DNA of 63,532 nt, the filler included, from Globobulimina sp. (taxonomy: Eukaryota): NCBI GenBank assembly GCA_003354225.1. It is 42 parts of 42 records of this genome, joined end to end, with 100 filler letters (N's around TTAATTAATTAA, not from the genome) between each part and the next. Parts side by side here need not be neighbours in the genome. Positions count along the whole stretch, not along the records: positions 4,551 to 5,966 come from PIVH01017023.1; 41 more parts are not named here. One strand, 5' to 3'. The position numbers were made by a program, and so were the translations under genes. The notes below the pieces were generated by a model. That model had not been told where the DNA came from. It was given only the letters and a program-made list of their open reading frames with translations, and searched no databases. Below, piece by piece: positions 3,035 to 51,420 of the stretch (position 1 is its first letter; the number at the start of each line of letters is the position of its first letter).

Positions 3035-4450
3035 AATTTCGGCATTGCTTTGATAGTCTGTTCGCAGATAAATGAGGCCAAACAATTCTTGATCTCATCG
3101 CTTAGTTTAGTTTGATTTTACATCCTTGCGCTCATAGCGTCGCAGCACAAATAATGTGAATATATATAGGTAAATGTGAGAGCGCCATGAAAGCGCAACA
3201 ATATGATTCGAATGAGATATTGTCAGAGATTGGCAATTTGCAATTATTGATTGCGTACTGTTTGTATTTGCAAAATGATTTTGAAGCTGCAGCCAAATAT
3301 TATCAACAATTGAACAGCACACAAAGGCATAGCAGTTATGAGGCGTTAATATTGGAAAATAATTCTTTAATTAATCACAATGTGGACGAGAAAGAAGAGC
3401 GAGCGAACCATGACAAATTGTGTGAATTATATGGAAAGTTGGCGGGCAATAAGCACAGTGATAATTTATTGCGGATTGGTGTGGATGGCAATGGATTGAG
3501 TCAAGTAACCAAAGTATACCATAATTATTGCATGGTTTTAATGAGAAACAAATCGAATGCAAATACATTATTATTTAAACAGATTATTTCAAAAATAAAA
3601 AATGCGAATCCATTGGGCGAATTAGCGTTATTTTTAAAAGTTTGCTATTTTGCAAATCAGGGTCAATATCAACAATGTGGCGATATTTTGTGCCATCATT
3701 TGGCCACTCATTCAAAGCCAAGCAAGAAAGCGCAATTATATTATATTCAGATATTAATAAATAAAAAAAAATATAAAATGGTGATAACGCAAGTTTTGAG
3801 CATGGACAATGAGATAAAATACAGTGAGAAAATGATAAATATGGTGATACATTTAGCACAAATAAAATTAAATGATAATGTGTTGACTGTTGGAATTATG
3901 AAACAATGCATTGAGTATTTAAAGGGAAAAAAGGAGGAAAATAAGTTATTGCTCGCGCTCGAAATTAAATTATGCAAATTGTTAATAGCCACAAATAGCG
4001 CGGCTGAGGCCAAGATGATCGCAAATAGTTTGTATGAGAGAGAGGCGGATAATGATATTTGTAAAGCGCTGTTTTTATTAACCTGCGTACATACAAATGA
4101 TATGATTGGTGCACAGAAAATATGTGAAGAAATTAAGATAAATGCTGCATTTGATGGATTTGGTGAATTTGAAATGGATAATATACCAAAACCAGTTGGA
4201 ATGGATTATGATGAGTATTCATTTGAGATTACTGAAGCAATGGAATTGAAAAGAAAACGCGAAATAAATCGACGGAAACGAGAAAAAAATGCAGTACAAT
4301 TAAGGAAAAAATATAAAGAGAATCCTACATTGTATAAGGAAGCGGTGAATTGGAAATCGGAGAAAAAAAGTTTGGTAAAAAAGGAAAAGAATGACGCGAA
4401 AGGAAAAAAAAAAAAAAAAAAGAAAAAAAAAAAGAAAAAAAAAAAAAAAA
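3035..4450 (+). CDS. SRP72: Signal recognition particle subunit SRP72 (partial; intron 3105..3169)
   Basis: The spliced sequence NFGIALI..INEAKQFL..KCESAM..EILSEIGNLQLLIAYCLYLQ..AAKYYQ matches the SRP72 TPR region. The C-terminus is Lys-rich. Confidence 0.7.
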
Positions 4451-4550: not shown

Positions 4551-5966
4551 ACCACATAATCCGCCTACAATCTGCGCTAAAATATACGAACAAACATTTG
4601 CTATGTCAGCAGGAAAGTCCTTAAACCCATCCAATGAGCCTCTTGCCACTAAACCAATGGTGATTGCTGGATTAAAATGACCACCCGATATGTATCCAAA
4701 TCCATACACCAACGAAACAAAACAGAATCCAACGGATAATGCTGTACTCACTGCATATAAATGTCCTCTTTGATTTATACCGTTTATATCCATTAAATCC
4801 GGATCCCCTTCAAAATTATGCCCCGCAGCCAATTTAATAACAGCCACCAACAGAAATGTGCCAATGAATTCAAGCATATATTTCTGATACTTACCCTTTT
4901 TCTGTTGCTCTGTGGATAATGTAAATTTGTATAACAAAGCAGCAACAATACCACCTAATAATTCTGGTATAATATAAATCCAAGCATCTTTCCAATGTGC
5001 CCCTACGTTTTCAACATTGTTATAGATTCCGTCACAAAAAGCAGCTGGTGATATAGTACCAATCCATACTGCAGGATTTAAGCAACAACTTGAAATCTCT
5101 GCAATTGCACCAATAGCGCATAACAATACAAATCCGATACCGACACCAAAAAATTGATTATCCTTTTGTCCGACAGCAATATTTAACACCACAAATACTA
5201 AAAAAAATGTAAATACTGCTTCAGCACCAAATGCTTGAAAACTTGTAAATTCTCCAGGTAATCGTACATAATTCATACAGGCTGCTTCCTTTGCTATTGC
5301 CCAGGAAAAAAATCCACCACATATTCCACCTAAACATTGCATCAAAATATATAGAATAACTTCAGTAAAAGTTGGTCTGTTTTGCGTTTCTTTTACTGCC
5401 GTTTTTGTGATAGCAACAGCCAAAGTAACTGCGGGATTATAATGGGCGCCCGATGTCCAACCAAATAAATATATCAATATCACAAAGCCAATGCCTATGG
5501 TCATTTGTGCAATGGAACCACGGCTTAACCCATCTTCAGCAACGGATACTTTTATAATGGTCACCAAGAAAAATGTTCCTATGAATTCGGCTAAATATTT
5601 CCTAACGTTCTCCAACCAATCTTCGTCATCTTCGACAGAGAATTTAATTTCATCATCTTCATCTACACGGGGTAAATATACGTATTTATGCAGTAATCCA
5701 GCCAGCAATGCAGCTGTCATACAACCAACAGTATAAATCCATGAATATTTCCATGTGACTTGAGAAGCATCGCCTGTTACGATATAATTTATTCCTGCGG
5801 AAACATAAGTTGAAAACCATACGGCAGGATTCAGAGCAGCACCAGAAATTGCGCCGACACAGCCAATGCATACAAATACAGTCCAACCAACCGCCAAAGC
5901 TGCAAATTGATTACCTTCTTGCTTGCATGCAACATTTGCCACAACAATGCCAAATAAAAATGTAAA
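4551..5966 (-). CDS. Aquaporin/MIP protein with at least three tandem MIP domains (open at both ends)
   Basis: One frame contains four NPA motifs (ALNPAV, HYNPAV, CLNPAV, HFNPAI), two helix-1 EFIGTF motifs and two helix-6 WIY motifs. Confidence 0.93.
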
Positions 5967-18194: not shown

Positions 18195-19449
18195 TATTTA
18201 CACTAAAATCTTTTAAATGTGTCATTTCACGCCACCAATATGAGGGAATATATAATATGTCACCTTTCGATAAGACACAATGATACATATTATCACATAA
18301 CACTTGATTGGAAATATTAAAATGTTTAAATAATCCCGATGGATATTCGCAATTTACCATTGACTGTCTATAACAACGATGTCCATAAGGAAACGGATAC
18401 AAATATGGCGTTGCTATTGGCGAAAATAATATTATTTCTGTACATCCATTGATTGATACGATTATATTATCTCTTTCTTTATATTTCAAAGGTATCACGC
18501 ATCCCGCACTTGAAATGCATAAATAGTTTGATATTAATCCGGATGCTTGGCATTGTTTCAATATATCGCATGCATAATATTTATGTAAGAGACTGGATGT
18601 TGTTTCTAAATAATAATAATGTCTGAGATAATTATTTATGAATTCATGCATTGGCATTTCCATTATTTCTTCCTGTCGTTGTTGTTGTGGCGGTTGCTGC
18701 TCTCTGAAATGTCTGCATTTTGATATTTGTACTTTACATAAATTATTTGATAATTTATTTGCTAAATATTGTGCATTCCATGTCGTTGGTATTTGGGCCA
18801 ATAAATGAGTTCCACGCACAATGCACGGCTGCTTTTCATCAAAATATTTGACAAAATCATTATTATTCAATGACACATCAACAATGGCAATATCTTTATA
18901 TTTAAATCCATTTTGTCCATAATTTGTTTTATATTCTGGTTGCTGTGTAATGTCAGATTCTAATATTTGAATAGAATCAATTTTATCAGTTTGCTGCTTC
19001 TCATTTGCTGTTGGTTCACTTTCCACTCTTTTTATTTGTTGACTGCGTGCATCGTTTTTGGTGGATTTCTGTTTTGATTTATTGTTTTTACTCTTTTTAT
19101 TTGATTTATTTTGTGATGATTTGTGATCATTGTTATTTTTATTTTTTTTATTTGCTATTTTGTTATTTTTACTTGATTTGTGTTGTTTCATTTCAATTTG
19201 TTGTTGTGATGGTTGACCATTATCATTCTCATTGTCATTTATTAATTCCTTTGTTCTTTTAATTAAATATGCTTTCAAATATGCGCTTTTTATCTTTGGT
19301 ATTTTTAGATCACTTTGGCATATTTCATTTATATCATCCCATTGCTTTTCGGATGCCAATAAAACTAAAACCTCCTCACTCTCTGCAACCTCATCAGTCC
19401 ACAAGTTCCCAATTCCTTGTTTAACAAACCAGTCTTGTAACGTCTCCAT
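18195..19449 (-). CDS. JmjC (FIH/HIF1AN-like) protein, probably catalytically inactive (3' partial)
   Basis: PCIVRG..W...YL, LFSP...YLYPFP.GH...RQSMVN and LSKGDILYIPSYWW. Confidence 0.8.
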
Positions 19450-19710
19450 TATAAACTCAAAAAACTGCAGCTACGCCGAGTGCCTACCTTTATATTAAGT
19501 AGCGCATTTTCGAACTGTTTTTAAAACTTACTCAGCAAACACTTTCTAATTTAACCATGTTGACTTCCTACCAAATTATTCTGGCACTTTCCTACATCCC
19601 AGCAATACAANNNNNNNNNNNNNNNNNNNNNNNNNNNNNNNNNNNNNNNNNNNNTTAATTAATTAANNNNNNNNNNNNNNNNNNNNNNNNNNNNNNNNNN
19701 NNNNNNNNNN

Positions 19711-21126
19711 ATTACGCATTTGCAGAGTCTACAAAAGCAAAAAGGGAAAATATCAATAAATGATTTTTGGGCAATACATACAAAAATGGGGAAGAGATCA
19801 AAAATAAAATCTGATAATCTCAAATCATGGCTAACTGATAGCGTACAAGTTTTGTTTAATGGACAAGATTTTGTAGAAAATGTGTGGAAGAAAAAACCAA
19901 TTTCAGTGAAATTTGCTGAGAATTTTTGTGCATTTTGTTATAAAAAATTTCATTCCAAAAAAGCTGTAGCAACACATCGCAGAAAATGTAAGAAGTTTAT
20001 CAGAAAAAAGAATGCACAGATTAAAAGAAAAAAATATCATGTTACAAGTTATGATGCTGTCAAAAGACATCAAATTTATGTTACAAGCAAGGATCCTGCA
20101 AAATATGATCCTGCCAAAAGACATCAAATTTATGTTACAAGCAAGGATCCTGCAAAATATGAGCCTGCCAAAAGACACAAAATTCATGTTGCAACTTATG
20201 ACCCTGTTGACAGGCATGAAAAGTATGAAAAAAAAGAAAAAGAAAAAAACATTAAAACAGACAAAGAAAAAAATGAAGAAGAAAGACTAGCTTACTGGAA
20301 AGCAGGCAATCCAGAGAATAAATTACATGACCAACCGTTTACTAAAAAAGCAACACTCAAATTTCATGAAAAACAAAAAAAATACCATTTAATACAATGT
20401 CAAGAATGTTTTGAGCGATGGTATAGAGCTTTAAATTTAAAATTTATACAAGAAAAGAAGCATCATTGCAGTGGGTGTGCAGAATATTGTCCACAAAACA
20501 CAATACCATATTATTGCCAAAAATGTAAAACTGGAGGATTTTATTGTAATACTTGTGTGAATGAAAGAAAAAGCAAAAAATGTGAAAACGTAAAATGCCA
20601 AAAACAAAACAAAAAATCTGGCTCAAAAATATTACAAAAATACATTTGTTCAAAATGTGAGTTACAATTGAAAAAAATTAAATGTAAAAATCCAGAATTT
20701 TCAGTTACATTGTTTGGAAAAGCAAATAATATGCACCCAGGTACTTTCCCAAAATTCGTACAAGAGATGACAATGATAGAAAGATTATTGATTTCTCCAA
20801 TAATTCACAAAGCACCCATTTATAGAGTTAAAGGAGGATCTCACCGTTATGCTGGAAATATTATTAATTTCATACAACATACTGAAGAAATTATTGAAGA
20901 ACTTCCTCGATTGCCGCAAGATTTAAAGATATTAATTATTAGGAGCTCACAAAACAGTTTAAAAAAAAATAAAATTTTTGAAATTAATCGGCAACGTGTA
21001 CGCGAATTTTGTCATTGGGCAGTTAATCAAAACTTACCAGGATGGAATAAAATTCGAATCTCTGAAGAAAATATTAATAAATTACCAGTAAATGGTGTAC
21101 CTGAAAATCTACCGACGATAATAGAT
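19711..21126 (+). mobile_element. Helitron-type Rep-helicase ORF, N-terminal region (zinc fingers and DUF6570-like domain)
   Basis: MHPG.FP..VQEMTMIERLLISP..IYRVKGG..YAGNIINFIQ..LPRLP..FEINRQRV..W is the conserved region upstream of Helitron Rep. Intronless ORF with a C2HC finger and CxxC pairs. Confidence 0.8.
20062..20190 (+). repeat. 54-bp coding tandem repeat (KRHQIYVTSKDPAKYDPA)
   Basis: Two near-identical units plus partial copies. Confidence 0.85.
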
Positions 21127-33514: not shown

Positions 33515-34492
33515 TTATAATATGCCTGACCACACAATTCCGAATACCAGAGACAAATCCATATGAACACCACCATTCTGACCACTTTTCAGATCAATGC
33601 AACATGTTTCTGGCTCTTCCATATTTGAACCAGTATGCTCCGCAATCCATGGATGACATTCAATATCTTTCGCAGAATATCTCTTTGCTGGATCGACCTG
33701 CAACAAACAGGTAACTAAATCCTTAGCGCCCTCTGATATATTATGCCAACGCGCAGAGTCAAAGTCATATTTGCCGTTCACAATCAACTCATAAATCTCA
33801 TACACTGATTCTGATTTAAATGGTTGGTCCCCAGCCAATAACAGATACAAAATCACGCCCACCGACCATAGATCGCTTTTGTTGTCATAGCCGTTATTGG
33901 ATAGTACTTCTGGTGCCACATAGCGCGGAGTGCCACAAGTTGTATGCAGCAACACTGACTGATATGCACTGTCAGCATCGGATGCATTCAGCCGTTGATA
34001 AAAGCGAGCCAGTCCAAAATCTGATATTTTGATAGTGCCATCCAAGCCAAATAAGATGTTTTGAGGTTTAATGTCGCGATGTATGACGCCATTGTTATGC
34101 AAATGCTGTAAAGCTTTGGATAATGCATAGATTATTTGTGCAGCTTTTCTTTCAGAGAAATGTTTCTGTTTCGAAGCAACCATTTGTTCAAATAAGTCTT
34201 TGTCGTTACACATTTCTAATATGAGATAGACGAATTTGCCATCATCGAACACATCGACTAATTTGATGATATTTTCGTGAGATATTTTTTTTAATATTAA
34301 TATCTCGTTTCGTAATGCAATGCGTTCTTTGGAAGATAGGCGCGTTTTGTCTATTATTTTGACTGCGAATTCTGCCGAATCATGTTTACGAGAACATTGC
34401 CTGACTGTGGCGAACGATCCAACTCCGATTTGTTTTCCTAATGTATAAAGGTTGTGGAAGCTCTTTTCGTTTAAAGAACTAACTGAGCCCAT
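33515..34492 (-). CDS. CAMK-group Ser/Thr kinase, probably N-myristoylated
   Basis: GVGSFA, AVK, HRDIKPQN, DFG and CGTPRYVAPE motifs; N-terminus MGSVSS. Confidence 0.95.
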   Translation of the reverse strand: MGSVSSLNEKSFHNLYTLGKQIGVGSFATVRQCSRKHDSAEFAVKIIDKTRLSSKERIALRNEILILKKISHENIIKLVDVFDDGKFVYLILEMCNDKDLFEQMVASKQKHFSERKAAQIIYALSKALQHLHNNGVIHRDIKPQNILFGLDGTIKISDFGLARFYQRLNASDADSAYQSVLLHTTCGTPRYVAPEVLSNNGYDNKSDLWSVGVILYLLLAGDQPFKSESVYEIYELIVNGKYDFDSARWHNISEGAKDLVTCLLQVDPAKRYSAKDIECHPWIAEHTGSNMEEPETCCIDLKSGQNGGVHMDLSLVFGIVWSGIL

Positions 34493-34862
34493 TGTCGATA
34501 AAATAGATAATTGTACTAAAGTAGTGGTAGTGAAGATGTTTTTTTTTGTTTAATAAATCTTTTTTTGTTTGCAATAAAGTAAGGTGAACCAGTCAATATT
34601 ATTATGAGTAAACGTACTTACACAGCATGAGAATAATAAAGTTTATATTTTGAACCTGGCACAGCAACACTTTCTAGCTCATTTATGGTCAAATCACATG
34701 TCAATTTCACATCATTTACATCCTCAATCTTATCCAAATTATTCCCTTTTTTATACGCATTCNNNNNNNNNNNNNNNNNNNNNNNNNNNNNNNNNNNNNN
34801 NNNNNNTTAATTAATTAANNNNNNNNNNNNNNNNNNNNNNNNNNNNNNNNNNNNNNNNNNNN

Positions 34863-48851: not shown

Positions 48852-49850
48852 TTATTGTTTTAATAGAAAGTCAACTTTAACTAATTTATGATCTGAACAC
48901 AATGAATCACAATGCTCGTATTTTATCACTTGGAACAAGGTTAAAAAATGATCATTTGCAAAAACGTAATCAATCCTAGTGTCAAACCGACATGTTCCCA
49001 TTTTACCACTCAATACATTTTCCCACAATTCTCCTTCCATTACATTTTTAGAACAATCTTTTCGTTTAATATTGTTTAGTTTACTTTTTTTTTGTTTCTT
49101 TTTGCGATGATTCAATTTGTATTCATCAATGTTATCATCATTAAATTCCACATCCATTATTATATCGTCTTTTTGCTTCACACTCTTTCGTAAAACATAC
49201 AAACAGTCTTTGAAATATTTCTCATGATTTATGATTGATAATAATTTATATGGCGGCTTGCCCCAATTATTACCCTCAAAAATATCACATATTTGTTTCC
49301 ATTCATGTATCACATAATCATTTCTATGAAACGCATTTAAATCACCAAGCAAAATCAATGGATATTGTTTATATTTCTCAATCATTTTTGTCATTTCATT
49401 ATATTCGGACATTCGGCGTTTCTCGCAGTTATAACTCAAATGAACATTAATAACACCAATGACAATATTATTAAATACATCTGTTAATTGTATTAAATCT
49501 AACTGCATTCTATGATTTGCTTGCTTCGAATTGGAACGAATTTGTTGAATAATTTCATATTTTGAGAATAAAACAACACCGCAACGTCGTCCCATTGAAC
49601 TATATTTTAAACCATTTGTTTCTGCAAAATGAGTCTTGTATTTTGTGTCGGATTCTTGTGTGGCAAATATATCCAATCGTTTAATTTTAACGTATTGTTG
49701 TATTCTCGATTGGTTTGGTTTTGCCTTGCCATCTTTCCAACGATGAACGTTCCAACTGCCAATACTAAGGAAACATTCACTTGTTTGTGTTTCTGAAGTT
49801 TCAATGAAATTAATGAGTTCATCGAGCCGCTCTAACAAGCTATCTGCCAT
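48852..49850 (-). CDS. Endonuclease/exonuclease/phosphatase (EEP) domain protein
   Basis: SWNV, DIFATQE, NVHL, LLGDLN, RIDYVF and SDH. Confidence 0.9.
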   Translation of the reverse strand: MADSLLERLDELINFIETSETQTSECFLSIGSWNVHRWKDGKAKPNQSRIQQYVKIKRLDIFATQESDTKYKTHFAETNGLKYSSMGRRCGVVLFSKYEIIQQIRSNSKQANHRMQLDLIQLTDVFNNIVIGVINVHLSYNCEKRRMSEYNEMTKMIEKYKQYPLILLGDLNAFHRNDYVIHEWKQICDIFEGNNWGKPPYKLLSIINHEKYFKDCLYVLRKSVKQKDDIIMDVEFNDDNIDEYKLNHRKKKQKKSKLNNIKRKDCSKNVMEGELWENVLSGKMGTCRFDTRIDYVFANDHFLTLFQVIKYEHCDSLCSDHKLVKVDFLLKQ

Positions 49851-50006
49851 TTTAAAAAGTTTAAAGTGAAGTTTTTTCTCTATACTTACTAACAAAAACG
49901 ATTGTTNNNNNNNNNNNNNNNNNNNNNNNNNNNNNNNNNNNNNNNNNNNNTTAATTAATTAANNNNNNNNNNNNNNNNNNNNNNNNNNNNNNNNNNNNNN
50001 NNNNNN

Positions 50007-51420
50007 TGTGCCACTCAAACCCTGTTGTTTTTGTTGATGCATAGAAGCATTTACATTGACCTTAGTTTCTTTTATCGCATCATTTAAGTCATCATAATTT
50101 ATAGCAACTTCAAAGTGCGTATGTGCATGATCCTGATCCTGTATTTTCATTTCAATTAATTTATTTTTACATCGATGAAATGCATTTGTTTGGCCGACTG
50201 TAAATATCATATTTAAATCAGCGCCCGTAAAATATTGAGTTTCTTTTGTAATCAATTCAATGATTTGATTTATATCATCCAATGATTCGCTAAATTTTAT
50301 TTTTTTATTTTCTATAAGTTTGGTAATAATATCTTTCCTGTCATTTTGCGTAGGTATGGGACAAAATAATTTCTTATCCAATCGCCCAGGACGTAACAAT
50401 GCAGAATCAATGAGATCCGGTCTGGACGATGCAGCTAACACAAACACATTGGATTGGCTTTCAACGCCATCTAAAAAGGTTAATAATTGGTTGACAATCC
50501 GATCAGTTACACCCGTTGACTCTTTGCCTCGCAGTGGAACGATACTCTCAAACTCATCGAAAAATATGATACATGGACTATTCTGTTTTGCGCGTATAAA
50601 TACATCGCGTATGGCCGACTCGGATGCGCCAATATATTTATTCAACAGTTCAGGCCCTTTGACCCGAATTATATTTAAACCACATCGGTCTGCGATACAT
50701 TTACCAATCATTGTCTTACCACAACCGGACGGGCCATATAATAGGACCCCGGTCCGCATGGCCAACGATAATTTATTAAATATTACATTATATTTGGTGG
50801 GTGTCTCAAATATATCTAATAATTCTTGTTTAACCAATGATAAACCACCAATATCGTCCCATGACTCTTCCCTTTCGCTCTTATTATTATTATGATAGGT
50901 TTCTCGCATTGTGGGTGGAATAAAAGTCGATGATATCTTAATGATAATGTCGGCCATCGATGTCTCCATTGATGTATATGATGTATATTCAATCATACAT
51001 TGGTCGATAAACAATTTAATATCATGGTACGAGGCATATTTAAACCATTTGTTTCCATGGTTTAAGATTAATGTTTTCAAACTAGAGAAAGATATATTTT
51101 TATGCGCCAAATAACTATACAAATATTTTAGGTTATTATTCAAATGTTGTTTATCAACAATTTGTGATTTATTTTGTGCTTTATTTTCAGACATATTTAA
51201 ACAGAAAATTGTATGAAATATATCTAGAGATAAAAAGTGAATATCTAAACATGATGGATCTGTAATACACGATATAATCAAAACATTATCACAATTTTTG
51301 TTGATATTTTCAATGCATTTCAATAATTTATGTCCGATTTGGAATGATCGCATAGATAATACATTTATTGTTTCATTTGATTGGAATGGTATTAATTTAT
51401 CTAAATCATAAAATATAATC
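50007..51420 (-). CDS. PEX1: Peroxisome biogenesis AAA ATPase PEX1 (partial)
   Basis: GVLLYGPSGCGKT, KGPELLNKYIGASE, FFDEFES..RG..STGVTDRIVNQLLT.LDGVE and ALLRPGRLDK. Confidence 0.9.

What the first reader, a model, noticed from the sequence alone, without database searches (positions are those of the whole stretch)
4551..5966. Single-chain concatemeric aquaporin with at least three MIP domains and NPAV in place of NPAR
Seen: one stop-free frame holds the C-half of MIP1, an acidic linker, a full MIP2, a very short basic linker (STEQQKKGKY) and the N-half of MIP3. The repeats are diverged from each other, so this is not a read duplication. Both loop-E motifs read NPAVW. Known: aquaporins normally have one MIP domain and assemble as tetramers, and the Arg after the second NPA forms the ar/R filter. 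Inference: this may be a genetically encoded pseudo-tetramer with non-identical, wider or less charged pores.
Basis: partly seen in the sequence, partly recalled or inferred. Interest (0 to 1): 0.88.

Follow-up and report, generated by a model that had tools for sequence, protein, structure and literature searches.

The report
Four aquaporins fused into one chain
This short contig is a piece of a protist (probably foraminiferan) gene that strings four different aquaporin channels into one protein, apparently a ready-made tetramer, and each channel lacks the arginine that normally guards the pore.

Summary
Window 4551-5966 is one complete 1416-nt contig. Its minus strand is a single stop-free frame of 472 aa: the C-half of one MIP domain, a full MIP domain and the N-half of a third (Pfam PF00230, E 1.3e-51). 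The loop-E motifs read NPAVW.

The two closest relatives are colinear across both linkers. The full-length one, from a Bolivina argentea (foraminifer) transcriptome, is 1060 aa and 69% identical. It has exactly four MIP domains, so the window holds domains 2 (C-half), 3 and 4 (N-half).

Among 269 retrieved homologues, full-domain counts are 0:1, 1:37, 2:201, 3:5, 4:25 and more than 4: none. The five three-domain proteins look truncated or degenerate.

A domain tree shows that the four-domain form arose independently in several lineages. AlphaFold2 models of two independent four-domain proteins give pTM 0.87 and 0.82, which means rigid four-domain assemblies.

None of 554 domains has the ar/R arginine. 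The window's complete domain reads I-I-C-V at the filter.

Best reading: a covalent pseudo-tetrameric aquaporin with four non-identical, uncharged pores. A 2024 survey flagged multi-domain MIPs in passing. I found nothing in print on the link to tetramer stoichiometry. Substrate, cleavage and ring geometry are untested.

The parts
4551..5966 (-). Whole contig: one stop-free frame of 472 codons (P0001), open at both ends. It is a fragment of a multi-MIP gene.
5676..5966 (-). C-terminal half of a MIP domain (residues 1-97). It corresponds to domain 2 of the four-domain orthologue P0122. Loop-E motif NPAVW at residues 46-50 (5817-5831). Filter residues I34, A43, V49.
5631..5675 (-). Linker 1 (residues 98-112), acidic (LPRVDEDDEIKFSVE...). 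It is colinear and conserved in P0002 and P0122.
   Evidence: bridged by contigs of runs X2 and X6
4914..5630 (-). Complete MIP domain (residues 113-351), equal to domain 3 of P0122. Loop B NPAVT (5424-5438), loop E NPAVW (5064-5078). ar/R tetrad I159 / I285 / C294 / V300.
4908..4913 (-). Linker 2 by HMM boundaries (residues 352-353).
   Evidence: bridged by contigs of runs X2 and X6
4551..4907 (-). N-terminal half of a MIP domain (residues 354-472), equal to domain 4 of P0122. Loop B NPAIT (4659-4673). Filter position H2 is F414.

Best explanation
The contig is a fragment (C-half of domain 2, domain 3, N-half of domain 4) of a roughly 1000-1060-aa single-chain aquaporin with four diverged MIP domains, from a foraminifer-like protist. 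Each MIP domain has six membrane helices with both ends in the cytoplasm, so short cytoplasmic linkers can join one domain to the next. The four domains then pack side by side into the ring that four separate aquaporin subunits normally form. This gives a covalent pseudo-tetramer with fixed 1:1:1:1 stoichiometry and fixed neighbour order. Each domain keeps its own pore, and the pores differ from one another. All lack the positively charged arginine of the aromatic/arginine filter (Val instead; the complete domain reads I-I-C-V). The pores are therefore uncharged and hydrophobic, and most likely conduct water and/or small neutral or gaseous solutes such as NH3, CO2, H2O2 or urea, rather than being orthodox water-only channels. 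Shown: the open frame, the domain content, the motifs, the colinear four-domain orthologue, the 1/2/4 distribution, the repeated origin, and the high pTM of the models. Inferred: that the window's own gene is also four-domain, that the chain is not cleaved, that the packing is the canonical ring, and the substrates.
For: (1) One frame of 472 codons without a stop, with 3 MIP stretches at E 1.3e-51. (2) P0122 (1060 aa, EukProt Bolivina argentea, 69% identity, 100% query cover) starts with M and has 4 full MIP domains, with 34 residues before the first domain and 47 after the last. P0002 (733 aa, another source) is 65% identical. Both are colinear with the window across both linkers. (3) Full-domain counts in all 269 retrieved homologues: 0:1, 1:37, 2:201, 3:5, 4:25, more than 4: 0. 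The five 3-domain proteins begin mid-domain, lack a start Met or carry a partial fourth domain. In the length-unbiased top 150 of the HMMER scan the counts are 0:1, 1:32, 2:99, 3:3, 4:15. Of 31 proteins longer than 826 aa, 25 have exactly 4 domains and none has more. (4) IQ-TREE on 106 domains gave the following. The foraminiferal group is one side of a branch in 100% of 200 bootstrap trees, and it sits with one single-domain protein in a clade supported 98/88 that is nested among single-domain proteins. Group B has all 4 positions in one clade (100/94). Group C likewise (100/99). A large tandem clade (100/99) contains several proteins whose d1+d3 (and often d2+d4) are sisters, which indicates separate AB to ABAB duplications (FastTree on 554 domains agrees). 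(5) AlphaFold2 gave pLDDT 81.3 and pTM 0.87 for P0122, and pLDDT 74.8 and pTM 0.82 for P0137, a protein of independent origin with linkers of 4, 8 and 1 residues. A chain of four domains, each about 22% of its length, cannot reach such pTM unless the domains are placed confidently relative to each other. (6) The domains of the model match solved aquaporins (Foldseek TMt 0.72-0.90). (7) 0 of 554 domains have Arg after the second NPA (V 476, I 43, L 16, A 9, T 5, M 3, S 1, C 1). The window reads I159/I285/C294/V300, with I34/A43/V49 and F414 in the half-domains. (8) Contigs of run X2 (same sample as the best holder, so not independent) bridge both junctions and run 458 and 111 letters beyond the contig ends. 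Contigs of run X6 (another study, 85-99% alike) also bridge both HMM-defined junctions.
Against: The window's own gene is cut at both ends, so its four-domain state rests on orthologues that are 65-69% identical. No RNA run on record holds the stretch, and there is no protein-level evidence that the roughly 115-kDa chain persists uncleaved. I could not obtain model coordinates or PAE, so the ring geometry and domain order are inferred from pTM and from homology to tetrameric aquaporins. AlphaFold2 may also pack aquaporin-like domains by analogy to known structures. The alignments used for folding were shallow (33 and 31 rows). Sister pairs d1+d3 within one protein could reflect gene conversion rather than separate duplications. 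The substrate assignment is inference only. The ar/R columns were set from a phmmer alignment to AqpM plus recalled AqpM residue numbers.
Confidence: 0.75

Rival explanations
1. Polyprotein: the chain is only a production format and is cut at the linkers into single MIP subunits, which then assemble like ordinary aquaporins. The model here is the light-harvesting polyproteins of dinoflagellates and Euglena (recalled).
For: Some four-domain relatives come from dinoflagellates (P0127, Biecheleria cincta), a group known for polyproteins (recalled). Two of the three linkers of P0122 are modelled as disordered (pLDDT below 50 at 258-270 and 513-526) and would be accessible to a protease.
Against: There is no motif common to all 75 linkers of the 25 four-domain proteins. 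Linkers can be as short as 1-5 residues, with a median of 16. The d3-d4 junction of P0122 is modelled with pLDDT about 86. The domains are diverged and position-specific: 34-39% identity within the window, and each position is orthologous across species. A polyprotein made to mass-produce one subunit would be expected to carry near-identical repeats instead. The copy number is 2 or 4 only, never 3 or 5-10, which fits tetramer arithmetic rather than production yield.
Confidence: 0.08
2. The four-domain chain is real but does not close on itself. Domains of two or more chains interdigitate into mixed tetramers or larger arrays.
For: Two-domain relatives, the majority form (201 of 269), must pair between chains to make a tetramer, so inter-chain packing exists in the family. 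No coordinates were available to verify ring closure.
Against: pTM of 0.87 and 0.82 for single chains indicates a self-contained compact arrangement. The strict ceiling of four domains is what intramolecular closure predicts.
Confidence: 0.1
3. Artefact: separate single-domain aquaporin genes or transcripts were wrongly joined by assembly or gene calling.
For: The contig is short and comes from a very fragmented assembly. Paralogous repeats can mislead assemblers. One X1 contig shows a 181-nt skip with 30 foreign letters.
Against: There is no stop, start or untranslated spacer between domains. Internal DNA repeats are weak (63 nt at 71%). The same junctions, residue for residue, occur in two other organisms' sequences from other sources. 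Other run contigs bridge both junctions. Twenty-five complete four-domain ORFs come from many sources and show positional orthology across species.
Confidence: 0.02

Closest known systems
Orthodox single-domain aquaporins that assemble as homotetramers (best solved-structure matches: archaeal AqpM 2EVU, fish AQP1 7W7R, spinach PIP2;1)
   Same: Same fold and family: Pfam MIP, two NPA boxes per domain, six helices plus two half-helices. Foldseek TMt is 0.72-0.90 for the domains of the orthologue model. LE1 is Cys, as in AQP1 (recalled as C189).
   Different: Sequence similarity is low (best PDB E-value 2.4e-11). Four domains are fused in one chain, whereas every one of the 41 matching solved sequences is 220-348 aa. 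The ar/R arginine is replaced by valine.
Multi-domain MIPs of TSAR protists noted by Irisarri et al. 2024, Genome Biol Evol (PMC11316224; passages read)
   Same: That survey found 1,101 of 7,541 eukaryotic MIPs with two or more hmmsearch MIP domains. About 60% were in an ochrophyte/dinoflagellate clade called 'SAR IX'. It called them unrecognised multi-domain MIPs that deserve scrutiny, and it lists one foraminiferan clade. The window's protein belongs to this phenomenon.
   Different: In the passages I read, the paper reports 'up to nine' domains, many of them partial. 'Tetramer' occurs once, in the introduction. It does not analyse copy number, stoichiometry, independent origins, linkers or filters.
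Plant tonoplast TIP1 aquaporins (ar/R H-I-A-V; recalled, not tested here)
   Same: Val replaces Arg after the second NPA and Ile sits at H5. TIP1 and TIP2 pass NH3, H2O2 and urea as well as water (recalled).
   Different: H2 is Ile or Phe here, not His. TIPs are single-domain. No phylogenetic link was tested.
Four-repeat voltage-gated Na+/Ca2+ channels and two-repeat two-pore channels (analogy, recalled)
   Same: The evolutionary logic is the same: a tetramer-forming unit is concatenated 1 to 2 to 4, which gives a pseudo-tetramer of non-identical repeats.
   Different: In those channels the four repeats share one central pore, so asymmetry directly shapes it. Aquaporin domains each have their own pore. 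The families are unrelated.
Engineered aquaporin tandem dimers and concatemers (recalled: AQP1 tandem dimers, Mathai and Agre 1999; PIP1-PIP2 concatemers)
   Same: They show that MIP domains joined head to tail through cytoplasmic linkers can fold and function.
   Different: They are laboratory constructs with near-identical units. Here the fusion is natural, ancient and made of diverged units.

Membership tests
MIP / aquaporin superfamily (PF00230) | Significant match to the family profile | tested here: met
   176 bits against a gathering score of 25, E 1.3e-51, 3 stretches
MIP / aquaporin superfamily (PF00230) | Two NPA boxes per domain (loops B and E) | tested here: met
   Complete domain: NPA at residues 177 and 297. 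Half-domains: one each, at 46 and 432
MIP / aquaporin superfamily (PF00230) | Six-helix hourglass fold | tested here: met
   Tested on the orthologue P0122, not on the window fragment itself: the AF2 model's domains match solved aquaporins at TMt 0.72-0.90
Orthodox aquaporins and aquaglyceroporins | Arginine immediately after the second NPA (ar/R filter) | tested here: not met
   V49 and V300 in the window. 0 of 554 domains of the retrieved clade have Arg there
Orthodox aquaporins and aquaglyceroporins | One MIP domain per polypeptide, with the tetramer built from four chains | tested here: not met
   At least 3 domains in the window's frame. There are 4 in the full-length orthologue
Multi-domain MIPs of TSAR (Irisarri et al. 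2024) | Two or more MIP domains in one predicted protein of a TSAR protist | tested here: met
   The nearest named relative is Bolivina argentea, a foraminifer
Multi-domain MIPs of TSAR (Irisarri et al. 2024) | Membership of that paper's 'SAR IX' clade or of its foraminiferan clade | not testable with these tools
In my tree the foraminiferal group is separate from the large tandem clade
Covalent pseudo-tetramer (single chain replacing four subunits) | Exactly four homologous channel-forming units in one complete chain | tested here: met
   Met for orthologues P0122 and P0123 (both start with M, have 4 domains and short tails). Inferred for the window's truncated gene
Covalent pseudo-tetramer (single chain replacing four subunits) | The four units of one chain close into one ring | tested here: inconclusive
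   pTM of 0.87 and 0.82 implies a rigid four-domain assembly, but no coordinates or PAE were available to check the geometry
Plant TIP1-like filter (H-I-A-V, recalled) | His at H2, Ile at H5, small residue at LE1, Val at LE2 | tested here: not met
   The window's domain 3 reads I-I-C-V. P0122's domains read F-I-C-V, F-I-A-V, L-I-C-V and F-I-S-V. No His at H2

The most novel reading that the evidence does not exclude
Covalent fusion was selected, again and again and always at exactly four units, because it fixes the order of four different helix faces around the tetramer's central 'fifth' pore. On this reading the main working conduit of these proteins is an asymmetric central gas or ion pathway, as the central pore became in Na+/Ca2+ channels. 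Some of the four monomer pores would be degenerating into scaffolds: in Bolivina, domains 1 and 2 read NPC/NPV in loop B and NPI/NIA/NLA in loop E.
Probability: 0.12. Interest if true: 0.88.

Novelty: new variant of a known kind. Interest (0 to 1): 0.66.

Why it matters
Aquaporins are the textbook case of a channel whose four subunits each carry their own pore, and why they are tetramers at all is still debated. Natural single-chain versions have four diverged pores in a fixed order. They arose independently several times, always with two or four units. That is direct evolutionary evidence that the tetramer, not the monomer, is the selected unit. These proteins also offer ready-made asymmetric tetramers for testing three questions: what the central pore does, how neighbouring subunits influence each other, and what an arginine-free filter conducts. 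The proteins occur in foraminifera and dinoflagellates, where CO2, NH3 and water fluxes matter for calcification, symbiosis and nitrogen metabolism. One paper reports an aquaporin up-regulated during foraminiferal chamber formation (PMC10284544, passages read). It is not shown to be this family.

Tried and rejected
- **Whole genome:** none is held, so the contig could not be extended. The window's 'neighbours' are unrelated contigs.
- **Sequencing runs:** no RNA holder is listed. X6 is only guessed to be RNA.
- **Bridging pieces:** of the listed pieces, those of X1 and X4 do not bridge the linkers by the 31-letter rule. X4 has no cover at 5463-5702.
- **X1 joint:** one X1 contig skips 5668-5850 with 30 other letters (depth 4.77, side 22). 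I took it as a paralogue or mis-laid unitig and did not pursue it.
- **Pfam batch:** I built my own family HMM instead.
- **Earlier findings of this scan:** three look-ups returned nothing.
- **Model coordinates:** they are not available to scripts, so ring geometry, domain order and linker spans could not be measured.
- **Complex prediction:** not used. Aquaporin domains would probably pass by likeness to solved tetramers, and a pass would hardly have changed my odds.
- **Literature:** searches for natural concatenated or multi-domain aquaporins found only the 2024 survey. Two papers were opened and proved irrelevant.
- **Polyprotein cleavage motif:** I looked for one shared by all linkers and found none. 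Only an 'RPE[ED]'-like start appears, and only at A-to-B junctions of the large tandem clade.
- **The two foraminiferal paralogue types:** whether the P0122-like and P0123-like types descend from one four-domain ancestor is unresolved (open nodes).

Full report
**What the window is.** The 63.5-kb window is not one locus. It is about 42 separate contigs of 1414-1417 nt, sorted by length and joined by artificial spacers of N44 + TTAATTAATTAA + N44. The finding (4551-5966) is exactly one such contig. The sequence around it therefore says nothing about this gene. No whole genome is held for the window.

**Checking the observation.** The minus strand of the contig is one open frame of 472 codons with no stop, open at both ends (protein P0001).
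- Pfam MIP (PF00230) matches at 176 bits (cut-off 25), E 1.3e-51, in three stretches.
- A family HMM that I built from the retrieved relatives places residues 1-97 on the C-terminal half of the model, 113-351 on the whole model and 354-472 on the N-terminal half.
- The motifs are as described: NPAVW at residues 46 and 297 (loop E), NPAVT at 177 and NPAIT at 432 (loop B), the acidic linker from residue 98, and STEQQKKGKY at 351.
- The repeats share only 33 of 96 and 36 of 93 aligned residues.
- The best internal DNA repeat is 63 nt at 71% identity, at the domain period.

So this is neither a read duplication nor a likely de Bruijn mis-join. The frame is on the minus strand.

**What the whole protein looks like.**
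- The closest relatives cover 100% of the fragment: P0002 (733 aa, 65% identity) and P0122 (1060 aa, 69% identity).
- The source names P0122 as a Bolivina argentea (benthic foraminifer) transcriptome protein. Its paralogue P0123 (1023 aa) comes from the same set.
- P0122 starts with Met and has 34 residues before the first domain. It has four full MIP domains, separated by 15, 17 and 2 residues beyond the HMM matches, and a 47-residue tail.
- The three-way alignment shows the window colinear with P0002 and P0122 through both linkers, which are themselves conserved. Both relatives end after the next half-domain with a tail ending in ALL.
- The window therefore holds the C-half of domain 2, domain 3 and the N-half of domain 4 of a four-domain protein.
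- That the window's own gene has four domains is an inference from orthologues that are 65-69% identical.

**Is the fusion real?**
- Between the domains there is no stop, start or spacer.
- The junctions recur residue for residue in sequences from two other sources.
- Logan contigs of run X2 bridge both junctions. These are record 16 (5356-5966, 5 other letters) and record 9 (4551-5009, 10 other letters). They run 111 and 458 letters beyond the contig's ends.
- X2 shares its sample with the best holder, which may be the window's source, so it is not independent.
- Contigs of X6 come from another study and organism label and are 85-99% alike. They bridge both HMM-defined junctions: records 29 and 30 across 5631-5675, and record 27 across 4908-4913. 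X6 has depth in all 30 bins.
- No run on record as RNA holds the stretch.

**Copy number in the family.** I counted full domains (at least 75% of the model) in all 269 proteins retrieved by the three searches. These searches are biased towards relatives of this query, and two of them were bounded by length.

| Set | 0 | 1 | 2 | 3 | 4 | more than 4 |
|---|---|---|---|---|---|---|
| All 269 retrieved proteins | 1 | 37 | 201 | 5 | 25 | 0 |
| Length-unbiased top 150 of the exhaustive HMMER scan | 1 | 32 | 99 | 3 | 15 | 0 |

- The five three-domain proteins begin mid-domain (P0003), carry a partial fourth domain (P0124, P0138) or lack a start Met (P0150, P0160).
- Of the 31 proteins longer than 826 aa, 25 have exactly four domains and none has more.
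- So the counts are one, two or four units, never more than four, with no convincing complete three. A tetramer-forming unit predicts exactly this.

**Independent origins.** The evidence is an IQ-TREE analysis of 106 individual domains (LG+G4, 223 columns, ultrafast bootstrap / SH-aLRT). The 106 were chosen from 554: all four-domain groups, their nearest two-domain relatives, and ten complete single-domain proteins.
- The 18 foraminiferal domains are one side of a branch in 100% of 200 bootstrap trees. With one single-domain protein they form a clade supported 98/88, nested among single-domain proteins.
- All four positions of group B (P0125, P0126) form one clade (100/94), sister to a single-domain protein.
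- All four positions of group C (P0137, P0139, P0140) form one clade (100/99).
- A large clade of tandem proteins (100/99) splits into an A-type (first domain) and a B-type (second domain). Within it P0128, P0144, P0130, P0135 and P0127 each have d1 and d3 as close sisters, mostly with starred support. This points to separate AB to ABAB duplications.
- FastTree on all 554 domains agrees.
- Within each group every position is orthologous across species. Random chimeras would not give that pattern.
- Caveats: gene conversion between halves could mimic some of the recent duplications. Group D is not cleanly monophyletic. The relation between the two foraminiferal paralogue types is unresolved.
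- Even so, at least four lineages (A, B, C and the tandem clade) reached four domains on their own.

**Structure.**
- AlphaFold2 on P0122 with a 33-row alignment gave mean pLDDT 81.3 and pTM 0.87. The d3-d4 junction was modelled at about 86, and the other two linkers fell below 50.
- P0137 has an independent origin and linkers of only 4, 8 and 1 residues beyond the HMM matches. It gave pLDDT 74.8 and pTM 0.82 despite a 105-residue disordered N-terminus.
- Each domain is only about a fifth to a quarter of the chain. Such pTM values require confident relative placement of all four domains.
- Foldseek matches are all single-domain aquaporins (TMt 0.72-0.90, TMq about 0.19).
- By sequence the best solved relative is AqpM (E 2.4e-11). 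All 41 matching solved sequences are 220-348 aa.
- I could not obtain coordinates. That the arrangement is the canonical ring in the order 1-2-3-4 is therefore inferred, not measured.

**The pores.**
- I set the four filter columns from the phmmer alignment to AqpM and from my recollection of AqpM's filter residues. The Arg position is self-evident from NPAR.
- The window's complete domain reads I159 / I285 / C294 / V300. The half-domains give I34 / A43 / V49 and F414.
- None of the 554 domains has Arg after the second NPA. The counts are V 476, I 43, L 16, A 9, T 5, M 3, S 1 and C 1.
- In the large tandem clade the commonest tetrad is A-G-G-V (136 domains), which would be a very open filter.
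- The arginine-free filter is thus a trait of the whole clade. It predates fusion, because the single-domain relatives have it too.
- In the foraminiferal proteins the filters are hydrophobic rather than obviously wide.
- In Bolivina, domains 1 and 2 also have degenerate NPA boxes (NPC, NPV or NPS in loop B; NPI, NIA or NLA in loop E), while domains 3 and 4 keep NPA/NPA. This suggests a division of labour among the four pores.
- From established knowledge (recalled): the filter Arg contributes to proton and cation exclusion. Plant TIP1, with H-I-A-V, conducts NH3, H2O2 and urea as well as water.
- My best guess is neutral small solutes or gases plus water. This is inference only.

**Rivals.**
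- A cleaved polyprotein is the most serious rival (about 8%). Dinoflagellates are known for polyproteins (recalled). Against it: the linkers share no common motif and can be 1-5 residues long; the units are diverged and position-specific; and the number is 2 or 4 rather than many.
- Inter-chain interdigitation (about 10%) cannot be excluded without coordinates or experiment.
- An assembly artefact is very unlikely (about 2%).

**What is known.**
- A 2024 survey (PMC11316224; I read passages only) reported that 1,101 of 7,541 eukaryotic MIPs have two or more hmmsearch MIP domains. It notes 'up to nine, several only partial', with 60% in an ochrophyte/dinoflagellate clade. It said such multi-domain MIPs 'deserve further scrutiny'. 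It lists one foraminiferan clade.
- In that text 'tetramer' occurs once, in the introduction.
- Six further full-text searches found no paper on natural four-domain aquaporins or their link to tetramer stoichiometry. The library lacks most subscription journals.
- Engineered aquaporin tandem dimers and the 1 to 2 to 4 history of voltage-gated cation channels are the nearest parallels. I cite both from memory.

**Verdict.** The existence of multi-domain MIPs in such protists is already in print. Three results appear not to be in print: the strict 1/2/4 arithmetic, the repeated independent arrival at four, and the confident single-chain four-domain models. I rate it a new variant of a known kind, with interest 0.66.

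Noticed in passing
whole window (N runs at 1418-1461, 1474-1517... every ~1516 nt): The window is a concatenation of about 42 unrelated contigs of 1414-1417 nt, sorted by length and separated by N44 + TTAATTAATTAA + N44. Any reading that spans a spacer is meaningless.
   Followed up: yes
3160-4450 (+): A 430-aa ORF with no Pfam match ends in a Lys-rich tail that runs into an A-tract at the contig end. This could be a poly(A) tail, which would suggest transcript-derived contigs, or a genomic A-run.
   Followed up: partly
19711-21126 (+): A frame open across the whole contig (472 aa) carries DUF6570 (PF20209, E 3e-21). I recall this domain as associated with Helitron-like helicases, so it may be a mobile-element fragment.
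   Followed up: no
48855-49904 (-): A 350-aa ORF with an Exo_endo_phos domain (E 9e-12). It may be the endonuclease of a retroelement or a cellular phosphatase/nuclease.
   Followed up: no
50007-51419 (-), 18196-19470 (-), 33518-34549 (-): Ordinary eukaryotic genes on other contigs: an AAA ATPase, a Cupin_8 (JmjC-like) protein and a Ser/Thr protein kinase.
   Followed up: no
P0127 versus P0108 (relatives, not in the window): The two-domain protein P0108 matches domain 1 and domain 4 of the four-domain dinoflagellate protein P0127 (91% identity for d1; sister pairs at 100/99 and 100/97). It is as if the middle two domains were missing. This could be an isoform, a recombinant between repeats or an assembly collapse.
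   Followed up: partly
P0139 and P0140, middle linker (relatives): The 64-72-residue middle linkers contain a stretch that looks like an extra MIP helix 1 (…EMIGTAF…/…EAVGIGC…). It may be a remnant of a further partial domain.
   Followed up: no
window 5668-5850, run X1: One low-depth contig (4.77) joins 5668 to 5850 with 30 unrelated letters in between. Several variant contigs at 90-99% likeness also exist in the same runs, which suggests alleles or close paralogues of this gene.
   Followed up: no
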